Source of the DNA: Escherichia phage JLBYU07 | Direction: 5' to 3' (one strand) | DNA length: 50,290 bases | Sequence record: OK272485.1 | Shown: one piece after another, positions 1,550-12,925 of the stretch | Layout of the letters: each line of letters starts with the position of its first letter | Position numbering within the stretch: the stretch's first letter is position 1 | The notes under the pieces: generated by a model | What the model was told of the DNA's origin: nothing | The model's input: the letters and a program-made list of their open reading frames with translations, nothing else | Database searches by the model: none | Program-made: the position numbers and the translations under genes

Positions 1550-3547
1550 ATGATTCCAAATATCGAAAAACAAATATCAGCGTTAGGCGAGGCAGTAATA
1601 AAAAGCATCCAAGAGCGATTCACGGTTGGCAATATAGTGCCTTATCCTTATCAGTGCGTTGCGTATGCCGAGATCGCAAAGCGCATGAAAAACTATGAGC
1701 ATCCTTTCTTTGTTAAGGCTTCTGTGTCGGCTGGCAAAACATTGATGTTTGCGATGGTTGCGGCGCAATGCCGCAAAATGGGATTGAAAATGATGGTCCT
1801 TGCTCGCCAGGCTGAAATTGTTGATCAGGATTCGGAAGAGATCAGCAATCTTGGCGTGCCAAACTCAATCTATTGCGCCGGACTGAAAACAAAAAGCGCA
1901 TACTTTCCGATCGTGGTCGGTTCTGAGGGCACTGTAGTAAACGGATTGTTTAAGTCGTTAGGTGATTATGTTCCGCACGTTATCGGTATTGATGAATGTC
2001 ACCAGGTGGATTGGGAGGATCTCGCCGACGCGATAGAAAATAATGAATCTTACCAGCAGATGACCACTAAGAAGGATTTGCCTGTACTGATTGGAGAAGA
2101 ACAGCAATTTGATTCCAATGGCGATCCAATGTTCGGAACAGGGCGCACACAGTACACCGTAATAATCATGGAAATGATGCGCAGGTGTCGCGAGGCATAC
2201 GGGCACGAATTGCGAATATTCGGTATGACTGGATCTGAATTTCGCGGCGTTGTTCCAATACTGGTTGAAGATAAGAACAAAAAGGGATTCTGGCGTGAGC
2301 AGGTGACTAACATAGACACAAACTACTTAATCAAATTCGGTTCGGTAGTGCCAACAAACTTCGGCGACGTAGGCGACCTGGGTTATGACCTTTCAGAGTT
2401 CGAAGCCAGTAGCGAGGATGGCGTTTCAGACTTTGACGCTAAAACATTGCGCAAGATGGAAGAAAAGATCCATCAAGACGCAACAATGACACAGAAAATC
2501 ATGGCTAAAGTCCATGAGATATGCAAAGACAGGAACGGAGTTTTAGTTACATGCGCAGGGGAAAGACACTGCAAGGAGGCCGCCGCCGCACTGCCGCCAG
2601 GCGTTGAATACAGGATCATAACTGGCAAGACTGGAGATAATCAGCGTAAAGAGTGGCTGAGGGAGGCATACGAGGGAAAAGTAAAATACATCTTCCAGGT
2701 ACAGGCGCTTACCACTGGCGTTAACGTTCCGTTTTGGGATACTTCGGTAATACTGAGAAAGATAGGATCTCTAACATTGCTTATCCAGCTTTTGGGGCGC
2801 GGTATGCGACTGCTTAAGCAATGGCACATTGAGCAGGGATTCAAGAAAAAAGACCATCTTGTATTGGATTTTGCCGGTACTATGGATGAGTTAGGGGATT
2901 TGTATTTCGATCCAATCCTTGAGCAAGCGCAATTCCAAAAGAGATTTACAAACGGGAAAGAGCCTAAGACTTGTCCGATATGTGGAACGCTAAACAGCTT
3001 TTACGCTCGCCGATGTATGCACGTAGACGATAACGGGAAGAGATGCGAGCATTTTTGGACTTACAGAATTTGCGAGGACCAGGTAGATCCGAGAACGAAA
3101 AAGATAATCAAGCGCGGTTGCGGAACAAAAAACGACGTAGTGGCGAGAGTATGCCGTTGTTGCGATATTTCTCTTGTCGATCCTAACGAGAAGTTAAGCG
3201 GTAAGCACTACACCAAAAACGATTGGTGCAACGTTAAATCTTTCCGCGTTGATATGACGAAAAACCAGAAAGGAATTATTTTTTGCTATGAGCTTGAGGC
3301 CAACGGCGACACGTTCAAGGCATACGAAAGATTTTTCCCTGAGTCAGAAAGCAACATTTGCAGGACGATATGGAGAAAAATAGCATTGCAGCACATACCG
3401 GATCGCAAGATTGCTGGTATGGTGGCGAGCTATAGAAATGCGCGTAAAATAATGTCATACGCTCATCACATCATGCCGCCTGTACGCGTAACGCATCGCA
3501 AAAACGGCAAAGGTGAGGATAACATTGCAAAACGGGAGTTTGTTTAA
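1550..3547 (+). CDS. SF2 (DEAD/DEAH-type) DNA helicase
   Basis: 665 aa; Walker A SVSAGKT, DECH box (GIDECHQ), C-terminal Cys clusters (CPICG, CRCC). Confidence 0.8.
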   Translation: MIPNIEKQISALGEAVIKSIQERFTVGNIVPYPYQCVAYAEIAKRMKNYEHPFFVKASVSAGKTLMFAMVAAQCRKMGLKMMVLARQAEIVDQDSEEISNLGVPNSIYCAGLKTKSAYFPIVVGSEGTVVNGLFKSLGDYVPHVIGIDECHQVDWEDLADAIENNESYQQMTTKKDLPVLIGEEQQFDSNGDPMFGTGRTQYTVIIMEMMRRCREAYGHELRIFGMTGSEFRGVVPILVEDKNKKGFWREQVTNIDTNYLIKFGSVVPTNFGDVGDLGYDLSEFEASSEDGVSDFDAKTLRKMEEKIHQDATMTQKIMAKVHEICKDRNGVLVTCAGERHCKEAAAALPPGVEYRIITGKTGDNQRKEWLREAYEGKVKYIFQVQALTTGVNVPFWDTSVILRKIGSLTLLIQLLGRGMRLLKQWHIEQGFKKKDHLVLDFAGTMDELGDLYFDPILEQAQFQKRFTNGKEPKTCPICGTLNSFYARRCMHVDDNGKRCEHFWTYRICEDQVDPRTKKIIKRGCGTKNDVVARVCRCCDISLVDPNEKLSGKHYTKNDWCNVKSFRVDMTKNQKGIIFCYELEANGDTFKAYERFFPESESNICRTIWRKIALQHIPDRKIAGMVASYRNARKIMSYAHHIMPPVRVTHRKNGKGEDNIAKREFV

Positions 3548-4045: not shown

Positions 4046-4771
4046 ATGGCTAAAGATATTTTAGATAAAGACACCCATGACGCATTCGTTAGCTTTGAGC
4101 AGTTGGAGAGAGAAACATTTATAGGGAATGCCCTTGCAACTGGAGGCCATTACCAGGCAGTAAAGCCAAATCAATATTATAAGGTAAGCGGCAACCGATA
4201 CGCTGGAAGCACTACGCCGGACGTTGTGCGCGATATGTGGAGCACACCTCAAGAGATCGTGGAGTGGATGGAATCAGAATTTGGCGAATACGATCTCGAC
4301 GCGGCAGCAAGCCAGGAAAACGCAGTTTGCGAGAAGTTCTATAGCAAGGAAACAAACTGCTTAAAGCGTTGGTGGGGTAGCAACAAGCACGTATGGCTTA
4401 ACCCGCCGTACAGCAACCCAACTCCATTTATCAAGAAAGCAATTGAGCAAATGGAGCACAACAACCAAATTGATGTTTTGTTGCCATCCGACAACTCTAC
4501 AGCATGGTTTTATGAGGCGCAGAAAAACGCGGCTGAAATCATCTGGATCACTGGCGAGGTTTACGAAGAGGGGGGAGTGGAATATTCCAGCACCGGAAGA
4601 ATCGCCTTTGTGTCTGGATTGACTGGCGAGCCTGTACAGGGCAACAATAAGGGGAGCGTGATTTTTGTCATGCGTAAACTTAAAGAAGGCGAAGAGCAGA
4701 AAACGCGATACGTTAAGATCAGCGATATTTGTCCTTCTGTTACCGAACGCCGAGCACGCAAACGGAGTTAA
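4046..4771 (+). CDS. dam: DNA N6-adenine methyltransferase (phage Dam family)
   Basis: 241 aa; catalytic NPPY motif (WLNPPYSNP), FxxYDLDAAAS SAM-binding region; GGAG RBS. Confidence 0.8.
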   Translation: MAKDILDKDTHDAFVSFEQLERETFIGNALATGGHYQAVKPNQYYKVSGNRYAGSTTPDVVRDMWSTPQEIVEWMESEFGEYDLDAAASQENAVCEKFYSKETNCLKRWWGSNKHVWLNPPYSNPTPFIKKAIEQMEHNNQIDVLLPSDNSTAWFYEAQKNAAEIIWITGEVYEEGGVEYSSTGRIAFVSGLTGEPVQGNNKGSVIFVMRKLKEGEEQKTRYVKISDICPSVTERRARKRS

Positions 4772-8390: not shown

Positions 8391-8786
8391 TCATGTGAGA
8401 TTGAATTTACGGCGCAGTGCTTCAAGATCTTGTCTATTAGCTTTTGCCTGGAACAATTCATCATCGCCCATCTCCCCTATTCTAGCCATATCCCTGATCC
8501 AGTCGTTGCGCATACCATCCAGGCTATACAATTCGAATCCGAAAGGCCGCTTTGACGATCCTTTGGACCAGTATTTTCCGCAGACTCCATCTATATAACC
8601 AGCCGTCATCATTCTTGCGCAAAATTCCTTAGATGCAAGGCTGGCGAACATTCGCGGCGTAAGTCCGGCGGCCCGTGCGAGCCGCTCACATTCTCTATGC
8701 TGATAGATAAATTTGGCTATGTGCTGCCTGTTAAACCAGTCGTATGACTCACACCATTTATACAGATCAAGCAAAAACATAATCAT
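8391..8786 (-). CDS. hypothetical protein
   Basis: 131 aa; ATGA-coupled to upstream ATPase gene. Confidence 0.5.
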   Translation of the reverse strand: MIMFLLDLYKWCESYDWFNRQHIAKFIYQHRECERLARAAGLTPRMFASLASKEFCARMMTAGYIDGVCGKYWSKGSSKRPFGFELYSLDGMRNDWIRDMARIGEMGDDELFQAKANRQDLEALRRKFNLT

Positions 8787-10363
8787 CCCAGCAGTATTGG
8801 ATTGACAAAAATAACACCATTAATCACACAAACATAATTTCTTTCTTCCAGCATTGGCAGCAAGTGCCCTTCTATCCTCTTCATTACGCCAGCCTGACCA
8901 ACGAAAGGTTTTACCTTTCTCGCTGATTCGTACAGGGCGCGAATATTCAGGATCCCTTTGTTGGCCTTGCCGTGCCTCGTGATCAATTCAATCAATTTAC
9001 CCATTTCAGCATCATCACCAGCATAACCAGAAGCATTGGCGGCGCTAATGTATGTTTTGCTCAATTCCTGAAACATGATCAACGCCTCTTGCATTGTTTC
9101 CACGTCGATCTCTTTCGACTTCTGCGGGTATCCGGCAGGATTAAACCAGTTACGGATAACATGCAGGACGGAAGCAAGCCTGATCACCTGTTTATCCATT
9201 TTACCAAGCGCACCGCGTAACATTGTATGAGAATACTTTCCTCCGTCTGCAAGATGCGGTTCCATATCCTGGCGAGCAATGTTGAGCACTCGCATAGCTG
9301 AACGGCTTATTTTCAGCGATATATTTGATTCGCTCATGATGTTATGCACCAATTGATAATATTGGGCTTTCAATTCAGAATCCACCGCCTCATAGGTAGA
9401 ATCACCATTTTCATCAATGAATGAGCGACGGCCTAAGAATGATTCCTCGCGGACCAACAAAAAACGCTCACTAACACCGATGCCTCGCGATCCAGCGTCC
9501 ATGATTCCGCTTATCGTTTCATCCTGGGCTATAACGCTCATACATCCAAGCGCGCGAAAACTCATATTATTGTCAGCATTAGCACGGGCAATTGATACGT
9601 GACCATTATCCCACGCCTTAAGCACTAGCTCACTGTTAGTCTTTCTTTCGCTATTTGCATAGGTCAAGCCTAACAGACTGTTAATACTTGTTGCTTCGTC
9701 AGATATTACGGCAAAGTTACCTTGCTTGTTGTTGATTTTCGCCAAGCCTTCTGGAGTTGTATCTGAAACAGGAAAAGTTATATCACACATTTTTTCCAGC
9801 TTTTCCTCCAGATCCTCTTTTTCCTGGTATAGAGATTCCATATCAGCGCCGGATCTTTCGCTTTTCATCTCCTTTGCAAGACCTGCCAGCTTTGCCTGTA
9901 TTTTCTTTCTTTCCTTGCGGCGTTGCTCGTTGATCTTCTCAACTTCCGCAATCATCGGAGCGATAGCCATGCTGTTGATCGCAGATTTACCAGTTGACGG
10001 CGGCTGGCTTGTAACGACGTAAAGCGCAGTCGGCTGATCGGTTCCGTGATAGTCAACCGTAAAACGTCCAAGCATAGCGGCAGAAATGCAGCCGATAAAG
10101 TGCATGTAAGCCGATGATTCAGGGAATTGAACGGATCGCGCAATGCTGCGTGATAACTTGCCGACAACATCAATATCATTACCAAGAGAAATAACGGGGT
10201 AGCGATCGTGACCGCTATTCACATCCTTTACGTCGCCCCAAAAGCTGGACGACTGGCGATAGCCGTTAGCCTGAATTGATACGCGAACTGGTGAGAGGTT
10301 CTGGCTTTCAGCCATAGCGATTATTTGCTGTGGAGTTAATTTGTTCGTTTCTAATGAAAACAT
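8783..10363 (-). CDS. P-loop NTPase, putative replication-associated ATPase (DUF3987-like by inference)
   Basis: 526 aa; Walker A PPSTGKS and Walker B FAVISDE separated by a Lys/Glu-rich coiled-coil insert; AGGAG RBS. Confidence 0.5.
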   Translation of the reverse strand: MFSLETNKLTPQQIIAMAESQNLSPVRVSIQANGYRQSSSFWGDVKDVNSGHDRYPVISLGNDIDVVGKLSRSIARSVQFPESSAYMHFIGCISAAMLGRFTVDYHGTDQPTALYVVTSQPPSTGKSAINSMAIAPMIAEVEKINEQRRKERKKIQAKLAGLAKEMKSERSGADMESLYQEKEDLEEKLEKMCDITFPVSDTTPEGLAKINNKQGNFAVISDEATSINSLLGLTYANSERKTNSELVLKAWDNGHVSIARANADNNMSFRALGCMSVIAQDETISGIMDAGSRGIGVSERFLLVREESFLGRRSFIDENGDSTYEAVDSELKAQYYQLVHNIMSESNISLKISRSAMRVLNIARQDMEPHLADGGKYSHTMLRGALGKMDKQVIRLASVLHVIRNWFNPAGYPQKSKEIDVETMQEALIMFQELSKTYISAANASGYAGDDAEMGKLIELITRHGKANKGILNIRALYESARKVKPFVGQAGVMKRIEGHLLPMLEERNYVCVINGVIFVNPILLG

Positions 10364-10415
10364 TCGTTAGCTTCTCCTTTGTGGGCCGTAAATTTTAACG
10401 GCCCAATACTACCCC

Positions 10416-10437
10416 GTTTTGTCAAAAAGTGCTATTT
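10416..10437 (-). promoter_or_regulatory. conserved intergenic box copy (minus orientation, TTGACA variant)
   Basis: TAG is stop of gene 10432-10653; followed by hairpin GGGCCGTTAAAATTTACGGCCC then RBS of ATPase gene. Confidence 0.6.
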
Positions 10438-10653
10438 GATCCGCTCTATTGCAACCAGAAGTCGATCAGGCTGGCGGTCGCTGTAGCATTCTCCTGTAAT
10501 CCCATCCTTAAACGTAAAGTAAAGCGCCTTATGATATGAAAAACCAATCAGCCAACCTACCGCCGTTTTTTTGATGGGCCTGACTATATCGCCAGGCTTG
10601 AAAGTCTTTGTGGTAGAATGCGTTACTTTATAACGGTTTTCACTGTTTATCAC
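10432..10653 (-). CDS. hypothetical protein
   Basis: 73 aa; stop TAG inside conserved box copy. Confidence 0.5.
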   Translation of the reverse strand: MINSENRYKVTHSTTKTFKPGDIVRPIKKTAVGWLIGFSYHKALYFTFKDGITGECYSDRQPDRLLVAIERIK

Positions 10654-11036
10654 AGATATTTGCCCTCAAACAGATAACAGCCGCCAGCAGAGAATCCGAC
10701 CTCTTCACGGTACAGGTTCCAGCGGTCGCCGCACTCATCAAAAACATAACCCGCAACGCTTCCAAGCGGTCGCCCTTTCTCGATCTGGTATCGCTTGCCC
10801 TGCTTAAAGTGCTTTTTGCACGGCATGTTATGATCTACAAACGTGCAAATAACGGTTTTTGTGTTAATGGCGCGGTAATCATCTCGGTTTGCTGGAAGCC
10901 AGCGGCTACCCTTAACAAGCGTCTTAACCTGGAATTCTTCCACCTCGATCACATCATCACTTCCTGCAATCTTCTGATAAACCGTTTTAAAACGGCCTTT
11001 CATCAATACGTTGGTTTCATTACAGATAACATTCAT
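10650..11036 (-). CDS. hypothetical protein
   Basis: 128 aa; AGGAG RBS. Confidence 0.5.
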   Translation of the reverse strand: MNVICNETNVLMKGRFKTVYQKIAGSDDVIEVEEFQVKTLVKGSRWLPANRDDYRAINTKTVICTFVDHNMPCKKHFKQGKRYQIEKGRPLGSVAGYVFDECGDRWNLYREEVGFSAGGCYLFEGKYL

Positions 11037-11089
11037 GATTAGATCTCCTTTGTTTGTTCGATGTGATTATGCCAGGTTTTTACACCTGG

Positions 11090-11110
11090 CTTTTAACAAA
11101 AAGTGCTATT
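11090..11110 (-). promoter_or_regulatory. conserved intergenic box copy (minus orientation)
   Basis: TAG is stop of MTase-like gene; followed by hairpin GCCAGGTGTAAAAACCTGGC and ATAATC. Confidence 0.65.
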
Positions 11111-11816
11111 TTGAATTTGACTCAAAGACGGCGCGAGCAAATCCGCGCGGAGTGAGGGAGCGTAGTTGCTTTGTTCTGGCAGACTTACCGCCTAAAAACT
11201 TCCAACCCCAAAAGAACATTACGCCATCATCATTGGATAACGGCTTGCGTTCCGGTTCGGTAAATCCGTTGCCGCACCAGATAGCCGTCCTTTTAGTGTA
11301 GCCATCCTTTAGCGGCATTTTGGGGTGAAATGACCCATCGGATTCGTCCAAGTAGTTACCAAAATCGCGCGGATTGAAATAAAAATCCGGCTTGCGCCAT
11401 AGCGTTGATAGTCGGCCTACCGGATTCTCAGCCATCCAGGGAACACCGAAATGATTTCCGACTTTTTCAACCATGATTGCATTTTGGAGCGCGATATGAA
11501 TATCGTCTTCGCTGCGCACATGCTTACTTCCTGATTGGGCGAACATGGTGCAGTCTGGAAAGCCAAATACAATATCAGGTTTTGGAATATCCATCTTAAT
11601 GATGTTTTCAATGAAATTTTCATCAATCCACATATTCACATAATGCAGATTTTCATGCTTCATTTTGATGAAATATTCTCCGTGATTGCCTTCGTCAGCG
11701 TTAAAGCAATAGCATTGATAACCAGCCTTCGCATATTCAAGCAACATGATTCCAGATCCATCAAACATTGAGTAAGCAACTTTATTTCCCATGATTTTTA
11801 TGATACCCCAATTCAT
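11106..11816 (-). CDS. compact C5-cytosine methyltransferase-like protein
   Basis: about 236 aa (start ambiguous 11792/11816/11852); motif I FDGSG, motif IV-like GFPDCTMFAQSG, motif VI ENP, motif VIII-like KRTAIWC; minimal TRD, no clear motif X; stop TAG in box. Confidence 0.45.
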   Translation of the reverse strand: MNWGIIKIMGNKVAYSMFDGSGIMLLEYAKAGYQCYCFNADEGNHGEYFIKMKHENLHYVNMWIDENFIENIIKMDIPKPDIVFGFPDCTMFAQSGSKHVRSEDDIHIALQNAIMVEKVGNHFGVPWMAENPVGRLSTLWRKPDFYFNPRDFGNYLDESDGSFHPKMPLKDGYTKRTAIWCGNGFTEPERKPLSNDDGVMFFWGWKFLGGKSARTKQLRSLTPRGFARAVFESNSK

Positions 11817-12309
11817 TCTCGGCTTTACGTTTTGCGGCAACAGCATCTCCAAAACTGGAGAAACAACCTATATAAATCCTACTTCCTCGCTTTCCGCTTC
11901 CAACCCTTACAATCCACTTGCCATGTTTATTTTTATGCACGCCTGGTATGCCACTTGTATTGTTTTTCTGCTTTGATGTGTTTCGCATATTTCCTTTGTG
12001 ATCTTTTAACTCAAAGTTTATTGCTCTGTTATCAGTCGTAATGTGATTTACGTGATCAACCTCCATTCCTTCCGGTATAGGCCCATAGTGCATTTCATAG
12101 CATATTCTATGAACTTTCAGGTTATAACGTTTTCCGTTTACAGTAAGTGCGGTTTCTAAATATCTGCCACCACTACCCAAAGAGCCAACCTCATTACCAG
12201 CATTACAAGCATTCCATTGTTTAACTCTTGATTGGTGAATATCTTTTCTTTCTTTCCAGAACAGCTTTCCGGTTTCTGGATTGTATGTAAAGTAATCGTG
12301 CCAATTCAT
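11782..12309 (-). CDS. HNH homing endonuclease (with AP2-like DNA-binding domain)
   Basis: 175 aa; HNH core EVDHVNHITTDNR; C-terminal GIPGVHKNKHGKWIVRV...YIGCFSSFGDAVAAKRKAE; GAGGT RBS. Confidence 0.8.
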   Translation of the reverse strand: MNWHDYFTYNPETGKLFWKERKDIHQSRVKQWNACNAGNEVGSLGSGGRYLETALTVNGKRYNLKVHRICYEMHYGPIPEGMEVDHVNHITTDNRAINFELKDHKGNMRNTSKQKNNTSGIPGVHKNKHGKWIVRVGSGKRGSRIYIGCFSSFGDAVAAKRKAENELGYHKNHGK

Positions 12310-12317
12310 TCATTACC

Positions 12318-12542
12318 TCAAAACGGAAAACAGCGCGCACAACCAGGATCGAAATCGCATCCACAATCATTAACAATCATAGTGGGATCTGCAAATATTG
12401 CGCTTGATTCAAGATCCATATCCATATCACCTAAAGCCTCATCAAGAGTCTTAATTTTATATGCCACTTCAAGCGCCGCCTCTTTATTTAGTCCGGCATC
12501 TTCTGCCATTTGAAGGCGCTCAAAAAATCCGTCTTGACTCAT
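12318..12542 (-). CDS. hypothetical acidic protein
   Basis: 74 aa; acidic, Cys cluster at C-terminus. Confidence 0.45.
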   Translation of the reverse strand: MSQDGFFERLQMAEDAGLNKEAALEVAYKIKTLDEALGDMDMDLESSAIFADPTMIVNDCGCDFDPGCARCFPF

Positions 12543-12655
12543 CGCATAATCCCCTTAATAACAGCCAAGATAATAGCCAGGCCAGCAGCAGTAACCAAAA
12601 AGCCAACCGCGCCAATAATCGAATAAAAAAAGAAATCAATAGCCTTATCTATCAT
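12539..12655 (-). CDS. small single-TMD membrane peptide
   Basis: 38 aa, below track threshold; GAGGTG RBS; MIDKAIDFFFYSIIGAVGFLVTAAGLAIILAVIKGIMR; stop overlaps next ATG. Confidence 0.5.
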   Translation of the reverse strand: MIDKAIDFFFYSIIGAVGFLVTAAGLAIILAVIKGIMR

Positions 12656-12697
12656 TTTCCACCTCATTTAAAAGGCGGCAAAACGCCGCCAGATTAA

Positions 12698-12925
12698 TTA
12701 AAGAGCACGCCAACTTTGAATATAGAAAGCGTTTTCTTCCAGTAATTCTTTTAACTGATCTTTATTGTATTTGCGCACCTTACCGCCTGGATGGATACCA
12801 ATAAGATAGCCGCCTTTGCCCTCGGTGATAGTGATTTGGCTAATTCCACAAGACTTATCAAGTTTTACAGCAACGCGGTGATGAGCGTCAATAGTTGACA
12901 TAATGTTTAAAACTTTTGCTTTCAT
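12698..12925 (-). CDS. hypothetical protein
   Basis: 75 aa; GAGGA RBS. Confidence 0.5.
   Translation of the reverse strand: MKAKVLNIMSTIDAHHRVAVKLDKSCGISQITITEGKGGYLIGIHPGGKVRKYNKDQLKELLEENAFYIQSWRAL

What the first reader, a model, noticed from the sequence alone, without database searches (positions are those of the whole stretch)
11106..12309. Compact C5-methyltransferase-like protein with atypical catalytic motif next to an HNH homing endonuclease
Seen in sequence: gene 11106-11816 carries C5-MTase motifs in canonical order (I FDGSG, IV-like GFPDCTMFAQSG, VI ENP, VIII-like KRTAIWC, and an LTPRGFARAV segment) but is only about 236 aa, with PDC in place of PCQ, a very short target-recognition region and no obvious motif X. 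Immediately upstream lies an HNH endonuclease (EVDHVNH...DNR plus AP2-like domain). With the Dam gene, the phage may encode two DNA methylation activities. Inference: the MTase-like protein may methylate host-restriction targets, may protect against the neighbouring HNH, or may be catalytically altered.
Basis: partly seen in the sequence, partly recalled or inferred. Interest (0 to 1): 0.5.

Follow-up and report, generated by a model that had tools for sequence, protein, structure and literature searches.

The report
Compact phage Dcm-like cytosine methyltransferase
This is an ordinary, already annotated gene of T1-like coliphages: a stripped-down DNA cytosine-5 methyltransferase whose relative in sister phages has been shown to make 5-methylcytosine, with a mobile HNH homing endonuclease gene that happens to be inserted just upstream.

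Summary
On the minus strand, 11106-11816 encodes a 236-aa protein (more likely 228 aa from the ATG at 11792) with FDGSG, FPDCT, ENPVG, YTKRT and LRSLTPRGFARAV in C5-methyltransferase order. An HNH_3 endonuclease gene (11782-12309) lies directly upstream, and a Dam gene lies at 4046-4771. The window is 99.9-100% identical here to Escherichia phage JLBYU10 (Drexlerviridae, Warwickvirus), where the gene is already annotated as a cytosine methyltransferase.

Sister phages carry a 46%-identical allele at the same locus. Its length and residues C82/E128/K175/K176 match the phage K42 Dcm, which was reported to raise 5mC on msDNA and trigger retron Ec86.

The HNH gene is an optional insert, present in 11 of about 36 carriers of this allele, so it is not a partner of the methylase. 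The recognition sequence remains undetermined. Verdict: real, functional, already known, of modest interest.

The parts
11106..11816 (-). Compact Dcm-like C5-cytosine methyltransferase CDS (236 aa from ATG 11816; more likely 228 aa from ATG 11792)
   Evidence: ORF. phrog_757 'DNA methyltransferase' E 2.1e-78. 100% identical to the JLBYU10 'putative DNA cytosine methyltransferase'. AF2 pLDDT 86 with a C5-MTase fold. The start at M9 is inferred from HNH-less BEK7.
11751..11765 (-). Motif I, FDGSG (AdoMet-binding loop), residues 18-22
   Evidence: D19, G20, S21 and G22 are invariant in A1. Aligned to F.G.G of M.HaeIII and of canonical enzymes.
11547..11561 (-). Motif IV, FPDCT, with the presumed catalytic Cys89
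   Evidence: The Cys is invariant in 31 close and 83 distant relatives. Aligned to PPCQ/FPCQ. Position -1 is D/P/S/E/V in the family.
11415..11429 (-). Motif VI, ENPVG (Glu130)
   Evidence: E130, N131, P132, V133 and G134 are invariant in A1, and E and P are invariant in A3. Aligned with ENV of E. coli Dcm in hhalign. It corresponds to E128, which was mutated in K42 Dcm.
11277..11300 (-). Motif VIII-like YTKRTAIW (K175 invariant)
   Evidence: Y173, K175, T177 and W180 are invariant. K175/K176 of the allele-B enzyme were the mutated 'substrate-binding' residues. No profile alignment covers this stretch.
11166..11276 (-). Minimal target-recognition region (about 40 residues between motifs VIII and IX); the most divergent stretch between alleles A and B
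   Evidence: 40 residues against 94-148 in seven canonical enzymes. Divergence between alleles is seen.
11127..11165 (-). Motif IX-like LRSLTPRGFARAV; the protein ends 6 residues later, so there is no motif X
   Evidence: Conserved in the family. Resembles the canonical R.LTPRE.xRL by eye. Only 19 residues run from its start to the stop codon.
11782..12309 (-). Free-standing HNH homing endonuclease gene (175 aa), an optional insert between the 74-aa ORF and dcm
   Evidence: PF13392 HNH_3 at residues 65-109 (nt 11983-12117), E 9.5e-15; phrog_99 E 1.7e-51. Absent from tonn and BEK7 at the same junction. 93% identical copy in Tunavirus S2_02. dN/dS 0.08-0.20.
12318..12542 (-). Conserved 74-aa ORF whose 3' end is the upstream boundary of both the HNH insert and the dcm allele swap
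   Evidence: phrog_9323 E 8e-37. Sequence is conserved up to TTTTGAGG in the window, tonn, PeterMerian and BEK7. Labelled 'putative cytosine DNA methylase' in JLBYU10; Pfam finds no family in it at E <= 1.
4046..4771 (+). Dam-type N6-adenine methyltransferase gene (the second methylase of the phage)
   Evidence: PF05869 Dam, E 1.5e-61. Annotated as such in JLBYU10.

Best explanation
The gene encodes a functional orphan DNA cytosine-5 methyltransferase. It belongs to a compact family, called Dcm-like, that is widespread in enterobacterial phages.

Proposed mechanism (inferred from the fold and from canonical C5-methyltransferase chemistry): AdoMet is bound by the FDGSG loop. Cys89 of FPDCT attacks C6 of a flipped-out cytosine. 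Glu130 of ENPVG protonates N3. The methyl group is then transferred to C5. DNA is read by an unusually small insert of about 40 residues between motifs VIII and IX, and there is no motif X.

Proposed role (inferred): the enzyme is expressed early with the replication genes. It methylates phage DNA, and any other DNA in the cell, to blunt host restriction. It works alongside the phage Dam.

Reported for a 46%-identical allele at the same locus of sister phages: 5mC formation on retron msDNA and activation of retron Ec86/Eco1. The gene is therefore also a liability, which would explain allele swaps and deletions at this locus.

The HNH gene upstream is an independent selfish homing endonuclease. 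It inserted between the 74-aa ORF and dcm and overlaps the dcm start. It is not a functional partner of the methylase.
For: Identity and family:
- The window is 99.9-100% identical to JLBYU10, where the gene is annotated as a cytosine methyltransferase. It is 95.9% identical at the DNA level to PeterMerian/Bas05, annotated 'Dcm-like C5 cytosine methyltransferase'.
- phrog_757 E 2e-78. 561 close homologues, of which the 120 listed are nearly all 210-250 aa. 1,491 phage records. 1,881 clusters at 50% identity.

Motifs: the Cys, the Glu and K175 are invariant across 83 relatives down to 27% identity. Motifs I-IV align in register with canonical enzymes.

Selection: dN/dS is 0.10-0.13 between the window, PeterMerian and BEK7.

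Activity of a relative: the tonn allele at the same locus is 236 aa with C82, E128, K175 and K176. These are the length (711 bp) and the residues given for phage K42 Dcm. K42 Dcm expression raised 5mC in msDNA by LC-MS and was toxic only with retron Ec86. The quadruple mutant was inactive. All four escaper phages had dcm lesions (bioRxiv 10.1101/2023.08.16.553469; restated in PMC12916289).

HNH independence.
Against: - No experiment exists for this allele; the tested enzyme is only 46% identical.
- Sequence profiles do not place the protein in PF00145: 12.7 bits against a cut-off of 22, and only 1 of 83 relatives reaches E < 0.01. There is no NCBIfam hit. hhalign against canonical enzymes reaches only 19% probability and covers only motifs I-IV.
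- The Pro of the canonical Pro-Cys is Asp here. The second Arg of QxRxR is missing. Motif X is absent.
- The recognition sequence is unknown. The preprint assumed CCWGG by analogy with E. coli Dcm, in a dcm+ host.
- Site statistics do not help. CCWGG is not avoided here (122 sites), but it is not avoided either in T1 (83 sites), which lacks this gene.
- BASEL found no simple link between methylase genes and resistance to restriction (PMC8594841).
Confidence: 0.8

Rival explanations
1. The protein is a catalytically impaired or repurposed methyltransferase-fold protein, for example a DNA- or AdoMet-binding protein without transferase activity. The reason would be that this allele has Asp instead of Pro before the catalytic Cys and lacks motif X.
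For: PDC in place of PC. No motif X and a minimal recognition region. Below the Pfam threshold. Low model confidence in the catalytic loop, residues 95-98.
Against: Cys89, Glu130 and K175 are invariant in relatives down to 27% identity. PDCT is as frequent as PPCT in the family. Selection is purifying, with dN/dS about 0.1. The equally compact, motif-X-less allele B enzyme was reported active, and its Cys/Glu/Lys mutant was dead.
Confidence: 0.07
2. The methylase and the HNH endonuclease form a functional pair. In this reading the methylase protects the phage genome from its own nuclease, like a restriction-modification or homing-immunity module.
For: The two genes are adjacent and overlap by 11-35 nt on the same strand. 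HNH genes also sit next to dcm homologues in a Dhillonvirus and a Nouzillyvirus.
Against: - Among phage records with this allele, 11 carry the HNH gene and about 25 do not. BEK7 has the intact methylase with a clean HNH-less junction.
- The same HNH (93% identical) sits in Tunavirus S2_02 beside only about 20 codons of dcm.
- In other genera the HNH lies downstream rather than upstream of dcm (whether those HNH genes are related to this one was not compared), and RB49 has none.
- T1 carries three HNH genes and no dcm.
Confidence: 0.04
3. The enzyme acts on something other than C5 methylation of double-stranded DNA. It might act on RNA or single-stranded DNA (Dnmt2-like), or transfer a group other than methyl, such as carboxymethyl from Cx-SAM.
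For: - The recognition region is tiny, and Thr replaces the Gln of PCQ.
- The only documented substrate of a relative is the stem-loop of single-stranded msDNA, in a host whose own Dcm left it largely unmethylated.
Against: LC-MS against a 5mC standard identified 5mC for the allele B enzyme. The best structural matches are DNA enzymes (DNMT3B/3A), which are themselves known for a small recognition region. Nothing in the neighbourhood encodes a Cx-SAM synthase or other hypermodification genes.
Confidence: 0.07

Closest known systems
Phage K42 / KarlJaspers-type 'Dcm' of Drexlerviridae, the trigger of retron Ec86 (Eco1) (bioRxiv 10.1101/2023.08.16.553469)
   Same: Same family, same genomic locus in sister phages and same compact size. 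The motif layout P-x-C-T, ENPVG, (Y/F)xK(K/R)T is shared, and the last 8 residues are identical, within a nearly identical C-terminal 25 (23 of 25). It is 46% identical to the tonn allele, whose length and residues C82/E128/K175/K176 match the published enzyme.
   Different: A different allele: FPDCT instead of FHPCT, and a divergent stretch between motifs VIII and IX, which is the presumed recognition region. This allele has not been tested. Whether it triggers the retron is unknown.
Canonical bacterial and phage C5-methyltransferases (Pfam PF00145: E. coli Dcm, M.HhaI, M.HaeIII)
   Different: About 100 residues shorter. The recognition region is 40 residues against 94-148. No motif X. Thr replaces Gln after the Cys. 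The Pro before the Cys is optional. The second Arg of QxRxR is missing. It scores below the Pfam threshold.
DNMT3A/DNMT3B catalytic domains
   Different: Only 12-17% identity. The DNMT3 enzymes keep PC, motif X and an oligomeric DNA-binding interface. Nothing is known about the oligomeric state of the phage enzyme.
Free-standing HNH_3 homing endonucleases of T1-like, T5-like and T7-like phages (phrog_99)
   Same: HNH_3 domain. Presence/absence polymorphism at a precise intergenic junction. A near-identical copy occurs in another genus.
   Different: The cleavage site and homing have not been demonstrated.

Membership tests
DNA cytosine-5 methyltransferase (Pfam PF00145) | Scores above the Pfam gathering threshold | tested here: not met
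   12.7 bits against a cut-off of 22, E 0.086. Only 1 of 83 diverse relatives reaches E < 0.01. No NCBIfam model matches.
DNA cytosine-5 methyltransferase (Pfam PF00145) | Fold of the C5-MTase catalytic domain | tested here: met
DNA cytosine-5 methyltransferase (Pfam PF00145) | Motif I F-x-G-x-G, the AdoMet loop | tested here: met
   FDGSG aligns with FSGAG of M.HaeIII and with FAGIGG of seven canonical enzymes.
DNA cytosine-5 methyltransferase (Pfam PF00145) | Catalytic Cys of motif IV in register | tested here: met
   Cys89 aligns with the PC Cys. It is invariant in 31 and in 83 relatives.
DNA cytosine-5 methyltransferase (Pfam PF00145) | Pro-Cys-Gln signature around the catalytic Cys | tested here: not met
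   Here it is Asp-Cys-Thr. In the family, position -1 is P (94), D (90), S (23), E (9) or V (8) of 270 sequences, and Thr follows the Cys almost always.
DNA cytosine-5 methyltransferase (Pfam PF00145) | Motif VI E-N-V with the conserved Glu | tested here: met
   ENPVG, with the Glu invariant. It aligns with ENV of E. coli Dcm.
DNA cytosine-5 methyltransferase (Pfam PF00145) | Motif VIII Q-x-R-x-R | tested here: inconclusive
   YTKRT stands at the expected position, with K175 invariant. No profile alignment reaches this region, and the second Arg has no counterpart.
DNA cytosine-5 methyltransferase (Pfam PF00145) | Large variable target-recognition domain between motifs VIII and IX | tested here: not met
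   40 residues against 94-148 in seven canonical enzymes.
DNA cytosine-5 methyltransferase (Pfam PF00145) | Motif X (G-N-S/A-V) after motif IX | tested here: not met
   The protein ends 19 residues after the start of the motif IX-like LRSLTPRG; canonical enzymes have 51-73.
DNA cytosine-5 methyltransferase (Pfam PF00145) | Makes 5-methylcytosine in DNA | not testable with these tools
   Reported for the 46%-identical allele B enzyme of phage K42 by LC-MS in a preprint. No data exist for this allele.
Compact phage Dcm-like methyltransferases (phrog_757) | Full-length match to the family profile, with the same size and motif set | tested here: met
   E 2.1e-78 over residues 7-235. The relatives listed are mostly 200-260 aa and share the invariant Cys, Glu and Lys.
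HNH homing endonuclease (PF13392 HNH_3) | HNH_3 domain above threshold | tested here: met
   54.4 bits against a cut-off of 24.8.
HNH homing endonuclease (PF13392 HNH_3) | Optional presence at a precise site among otherwise collinear genomes | tested here: met
   Junction comparison of the window and PeterMerian (with HNH) against tonn and BEK7 (without). 11 records with and about 25 without.
HNH homing endonuclease (PF13392 HNH_3) | Site-specific cleavage of the HNH-less allele, and homing | not testable with these tools
   Requires cleavage assays or mixed infections.
Restriction-modification-like pair (methylase plus cognate nuclease) | Obligate co-occurrence of the two genes | tested here: not met
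   The methylase occurs without the HNH gene in most carriers. The HNH gene occurs without an intact methylase in S2_02.

The most novel reading that the evidence does not exclude
The compact Dcm-like enzymes are not CCWGG methylases at all. Instead they would have a short, relaxed or structure-dependent specificity set by the 40-residue insert, which could include single-stranded or hairpin DNA such as msDNA. The two 46%-identical alleles that replace each other at one locus within a single phage genus would then differ in target. The swaps and in-frame deletions at this locus would record an arms race between restriction evasion and methylation-sensing defences such as retron Eco1.
Probability: 0.2. 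Interest if true: 0.55.

Novelty: already known. Interest (0 to 1): 0.22.

Why it matters
It matters little as a discovery. The gene is already annotated in GenBank in identical and near-identical phages, and a relative has been studied as the trigger of retron Ec86/Eco1.

Its residual value is practical:
- The family is missed by Pfam and NCBIfam, although it occurs in about 3% of sequenced phage genomes.
- It is the smallest kind of C5-methyltransferase seen here, lacking motif X and most of the recognition domain.
- Its recognition sequence has never been measured directly.

Knowing the target of each allele would help to predict which phages evade restriction and which ones set off methylation-sensing defences. 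That is useful when choosing therapeutic T1-like phages.

Tried and rejected
1. Sequence placement in known families gave little. Pfam, NCBIfam and PDB phmmer/hmmsearch, with the single protein and with profiles A1 and A3, gave only sub-threshold hits. The C-terminal 36 residues alone found nothing in the PDB.

2. hhalign of the family profile against E. coli Dcm alone gave probability 0.5%. Against a seven-sequence canonical alignment it gave 19%, covering motifs I-IV only. The assignment of motifs VIII and IX therefore rests on position, conservation and inspection by eye.

3. I considered that the HNH gene had split a longer methylase gene, so that the 74-aa ORF labelled 'putative cytosine DNA methylase' in JLBYU10 would be its N-terminus. 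This is rejected. HNH-less phages keep the 74-aa ORF and a separate 228-236-aa methylase gene.

4. I tried to infer the target site from site avoidance. The genome lacks 26 of 64 hexamer palindromes and nearly lacks CCSGG (3 sites), while keeping 122 CCWGG and 302 GATC. The control failed, however: T1 has no dcm homologue and also keeps CCWGG (83 sites). The test is therefore uninformative.

5. I looked for a conserved partner gene that could supply the missing parts in trans. Contexts in a Dhillonvirus, a Nouzillyvirus and RB49 share no neighbour, and the K42 enzyme works alone from a plasmid.

6. The AP2 domain in the HNH protein was not detected.

7. The afdb50 fold library was unavailable.

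Full report
**What is there.** The finding lies on the minus strand. ORF 11106-11816 encodes 236 aa (MNWGIIKIMGNKVAYSMFDGSG...). ORF 11782-12309, directly upstream in the direction of transcription, encodes 175 aa. The upstream protein is a clear HNH_3 endonuclease (PF13392, E 9.5e-15; phrog_99, E 1.7e-51). The AP2-like domain in the HNH protein could not be confirmed by Pfam, even on the isolated C-terminus at E <= 10.

**Where the window comes from.** Region 10400-12700 is 99.9% identical to Escherichia phage JLBYU10 (Drexlerviridae, Tempevirinae, Warwickvirus), and the finding's 1,204 bases are 100% identical. In that record the two genes are annotated 'putative DNA cytosine methyltransferase' and 'putative HNH endonuclease'. 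In BASEL phage PeterMerian (Bas05, 95.9% identical here) the first gene is annotated 'Dcm-like C5 cytosine methyltransferase'. The gene is therefore already catalogued.

**What the methylase-like protein is.**
- Sequence profiles barely see it. Pfam DNA_methylase gives 12.7 bits against a cut-off of 22. NCBIfam gives nothing. PDB phmmer finds only M.HaeIII at E 0.037.
- PHROGs places it firmly in phrog_757, 'DNA methyltransferase' (E 2e-78).
- The family is large. There are 561 close homologues, and tblastn matches in 1,491 of 50,697 phage records. These include T1-like phages, dhillonviruses, rV5-like phages, FelixO1-like phages and the T4-like RB49. There are 1,881 clusters at 50% identity in the 1.8-billion-protein library. 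Nearly all members are 200-260 aa, so compactness is a family character and not a truncation.

**Motifs.**
- phmmer and hhalign put FDGSG on F-x-G-x-G and put the Cys of FPDCT on the catalytic Cys of PPCQ/FPCQ. ENPVG falls on ENV.
- In 83 relatives down to 27% identity, the invariant residues include the Cys, the Glu and Pro of ENP, and the Tyr/Lys/Thr/Trp of YTKxTxxW.
- The residue before the Cys is free. Among 270 family sequences the counts are PPCT 94, PDCT 90, PSCT 23, PECT 9 and PVCT 8. Thr instead of Gln after the Cys is the family rule.
- I aligned seven canonical enzymes for comparison: E. coli Dcm and six phage enzymes. The spacer between motif VIII and motif IX is 40 residues here against 94-148 there. 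Only 19 residues run from the start of the motif IX-like LRSLTPRG to the C-terminus, against 51-73.
- The recognition domain is therefore minimal, and there is no room for motif X. The assignment of motifs VIII and IX rests on position, conservation and inspection by eye. No profile alignment reached them.

**Is it functional?**
- dN/dS between the window, PeterMerian and BEK7 is 0.10-0.13.
- Sister phages of the same genus (tonn, swan01, JLBYU16) carry, at exactly the same locus, a 46%-identical allele, here called allele B. Read from MYKG, it is 236 aa (711 bp) with Cys82 (FHPCT), Glu128 (ENPVG) and Lys175-Lys176.
- These are exactly the gene length and the four residues given for the 'Dcm' of phage K42, a KarlJaspers-like Drexlerviridae phage, in bioRxiv 10.1101/2023.08.16.553469.
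- In that work all four escapers of retron Ec86 had dcm lesions. Dcm expression was toxic only with the retron. LC-MS showed high 5mC in msDNA with Dcm, and low 5mC with the C82A/E128A/K175A/K176A mutant or the empty vector.
- A later paper restates msDNA methylation by a phage cytosine methyltransferase as the Eco1 trigger (PMC12916289).
- A member of this compact, motif-X-less family is therefore reported to be an active C5-methyltransferase working alone. For the window's allele, activity is inferred.

**What is not known.**
- The preprint took CCWGG from E. coli Dcm by analogy and tested it only by mutating the msDNA. The host was dcm+, yet the msDNA was little methylated without the phage enzyme. 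The true target is therefore open.
- I tried site statistics. The window lacks 26 of 64 hexamer palindromes and has 3 CCSGG sites against 122 CCWGG and 302 GATC. This would fit protection of CCWGG and GATC by methylation.
- The control removes the argument. T1 has no homologue of this gene and still has 83 CCWGG sites.
- BASEL likewise found no simple link between methylase genes and resistance to restriction (PMC8594841).

**The HNH gene.**
- Comparison with tonn and BEK7 shows conserved sequence up to ...TTTCCGTTTTGAGG at the end of the 74-aa ORF. After that point comes either the methylase start or the HNH gene followed by the methylase.
- Among records with this allele, 11 have the HNH gene and about 25 do not.
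- In HNH-less BEK7 the methylase starts MKQKIAYSMFDGSG, which corresponds to Met9 of the window ORF. The first eight codons (MNWGIIKI) are HNH-derived sequence read in another frame. The likely start is therefore ATG 11792, overlapping the HNH stop by 11 nt.
- The same HNH gene (93% identical) sits in Tunavirus S2_02, preceded by only about 20 codons of a dcm gene.
- This is the behaviour of a free-standing homing endonuclease and not of a partner of the methylase. In other genera an HNH gene lies downstream of dcm or is absent.

**Locus dynamics.** Block 11106-12309, which is exactly the finding, is the part that differs between Warwickvirus genomes. The flanks are about 99% identical, while the block holds either allele A with or without the HNH gene, or allele B. 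The downstream breakpoint lies inside the last 57 nt of the methylase gene. Salmonella phage GS71 has an in-frame deletion of residues 25-115, which include the catalytic Cys. Such turnover fits a gene that is useful against restriction but dangerous where methylation-sensing defences exist. That link is an inference.

**Verdict.** The gene is an already known kind of phage gene, in an already annotated phage. The open points are the recognition sequence and how the enzyme works without motif X.

Noticed in passing
whole window (1-50290): Palindrome avoidance is extreme. 26 of 64 hexamer palindromes are absent and 36 occur at most twice (median observed/expected 0.14, against 0.94 for non-palindromes). 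CCSGG occurs 3 times against 55 expected and 122 CCWGG. In contrast, GCGCGC (30) and CGCGCG (33) are about 5-fold over-represented. T1 does not avoid CCSGG (65 sites).
   Followed up: partly
window 11071-11090: A 7-bp-stem hairpin (GCCAGGT ... ACCTGGC) lies 16-35 nt downstream of the methylase stop codon, and both arms carry a CCWGG site. The 86-nt intergenic RNA folds at -17.1 kcal/mol (z = -2.8). No U-run follows, so it is not a classic terminator.
   Followed up: partly
L006 (Shigella phage S2_02, OQ223306) 1460-2100: A 93%-identical copy of the HNH gene sits in a Tunavirus. It is preceded by a short ORF, MQQVKLIWSLFDGSGLAGHELNFARYLPF*. This ORF is the first ~20 codons of a dcm gene fused to the last codons of the 74-aa ORF. 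It looks like a scar of HNH-associated recombination that destroyed dcm.
   Followed up: partly
L004 (Salmonella phage vB_GS71, PV090992) 2687-3124: The methylase allele carries an in-frame deletion of residues 25-115, which removes motif IV and the catalytic Cys, while the HNH gene upstream is intact. This is a natural dcm knock-out.
   Followed up: no
window 12318-12542 (minus strand): A conserved 74-aa acidic protein with a C-terminal C-x-C...C-x-x-C (phrog_9323) is labelled 'putative cytosine DNA methylase' in JLBYU10. That label has no support from Pfam. Its stop codon and the following Shine-Dalgarno-like GAGG mark the recombination breakpoint for both the HNH insert and the dcm allele swap.
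   Followed up: partly
phage database hits: About 17-39 records named 'Campylobacter phage' (MG0656xx, unannotated) carry this T1-like region at 96-97% identity. They look like coliphage sequences filed under a Campylobacter host.
   Followed up: no
BFVD hits A0A6J5NPY6 and A0A6J5SE15: The same compact methylase domain occurs as one module of 1,100-1,400-aa proteins of uncultured phages. One of them also carries a helicase/UvrB N-terminal domain, which is reminiscent of large anti-restriction methylase-helicase proteins.
   Followed up: no
window 8783-10363 (minus strand): The gene annotated 'putative helicase' just downstream of the dcm block is a DUF3987 protein by Pfam (E 1.7e-44). T1 and several relatives carry further HNH genes next to it.
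   Followed up: no
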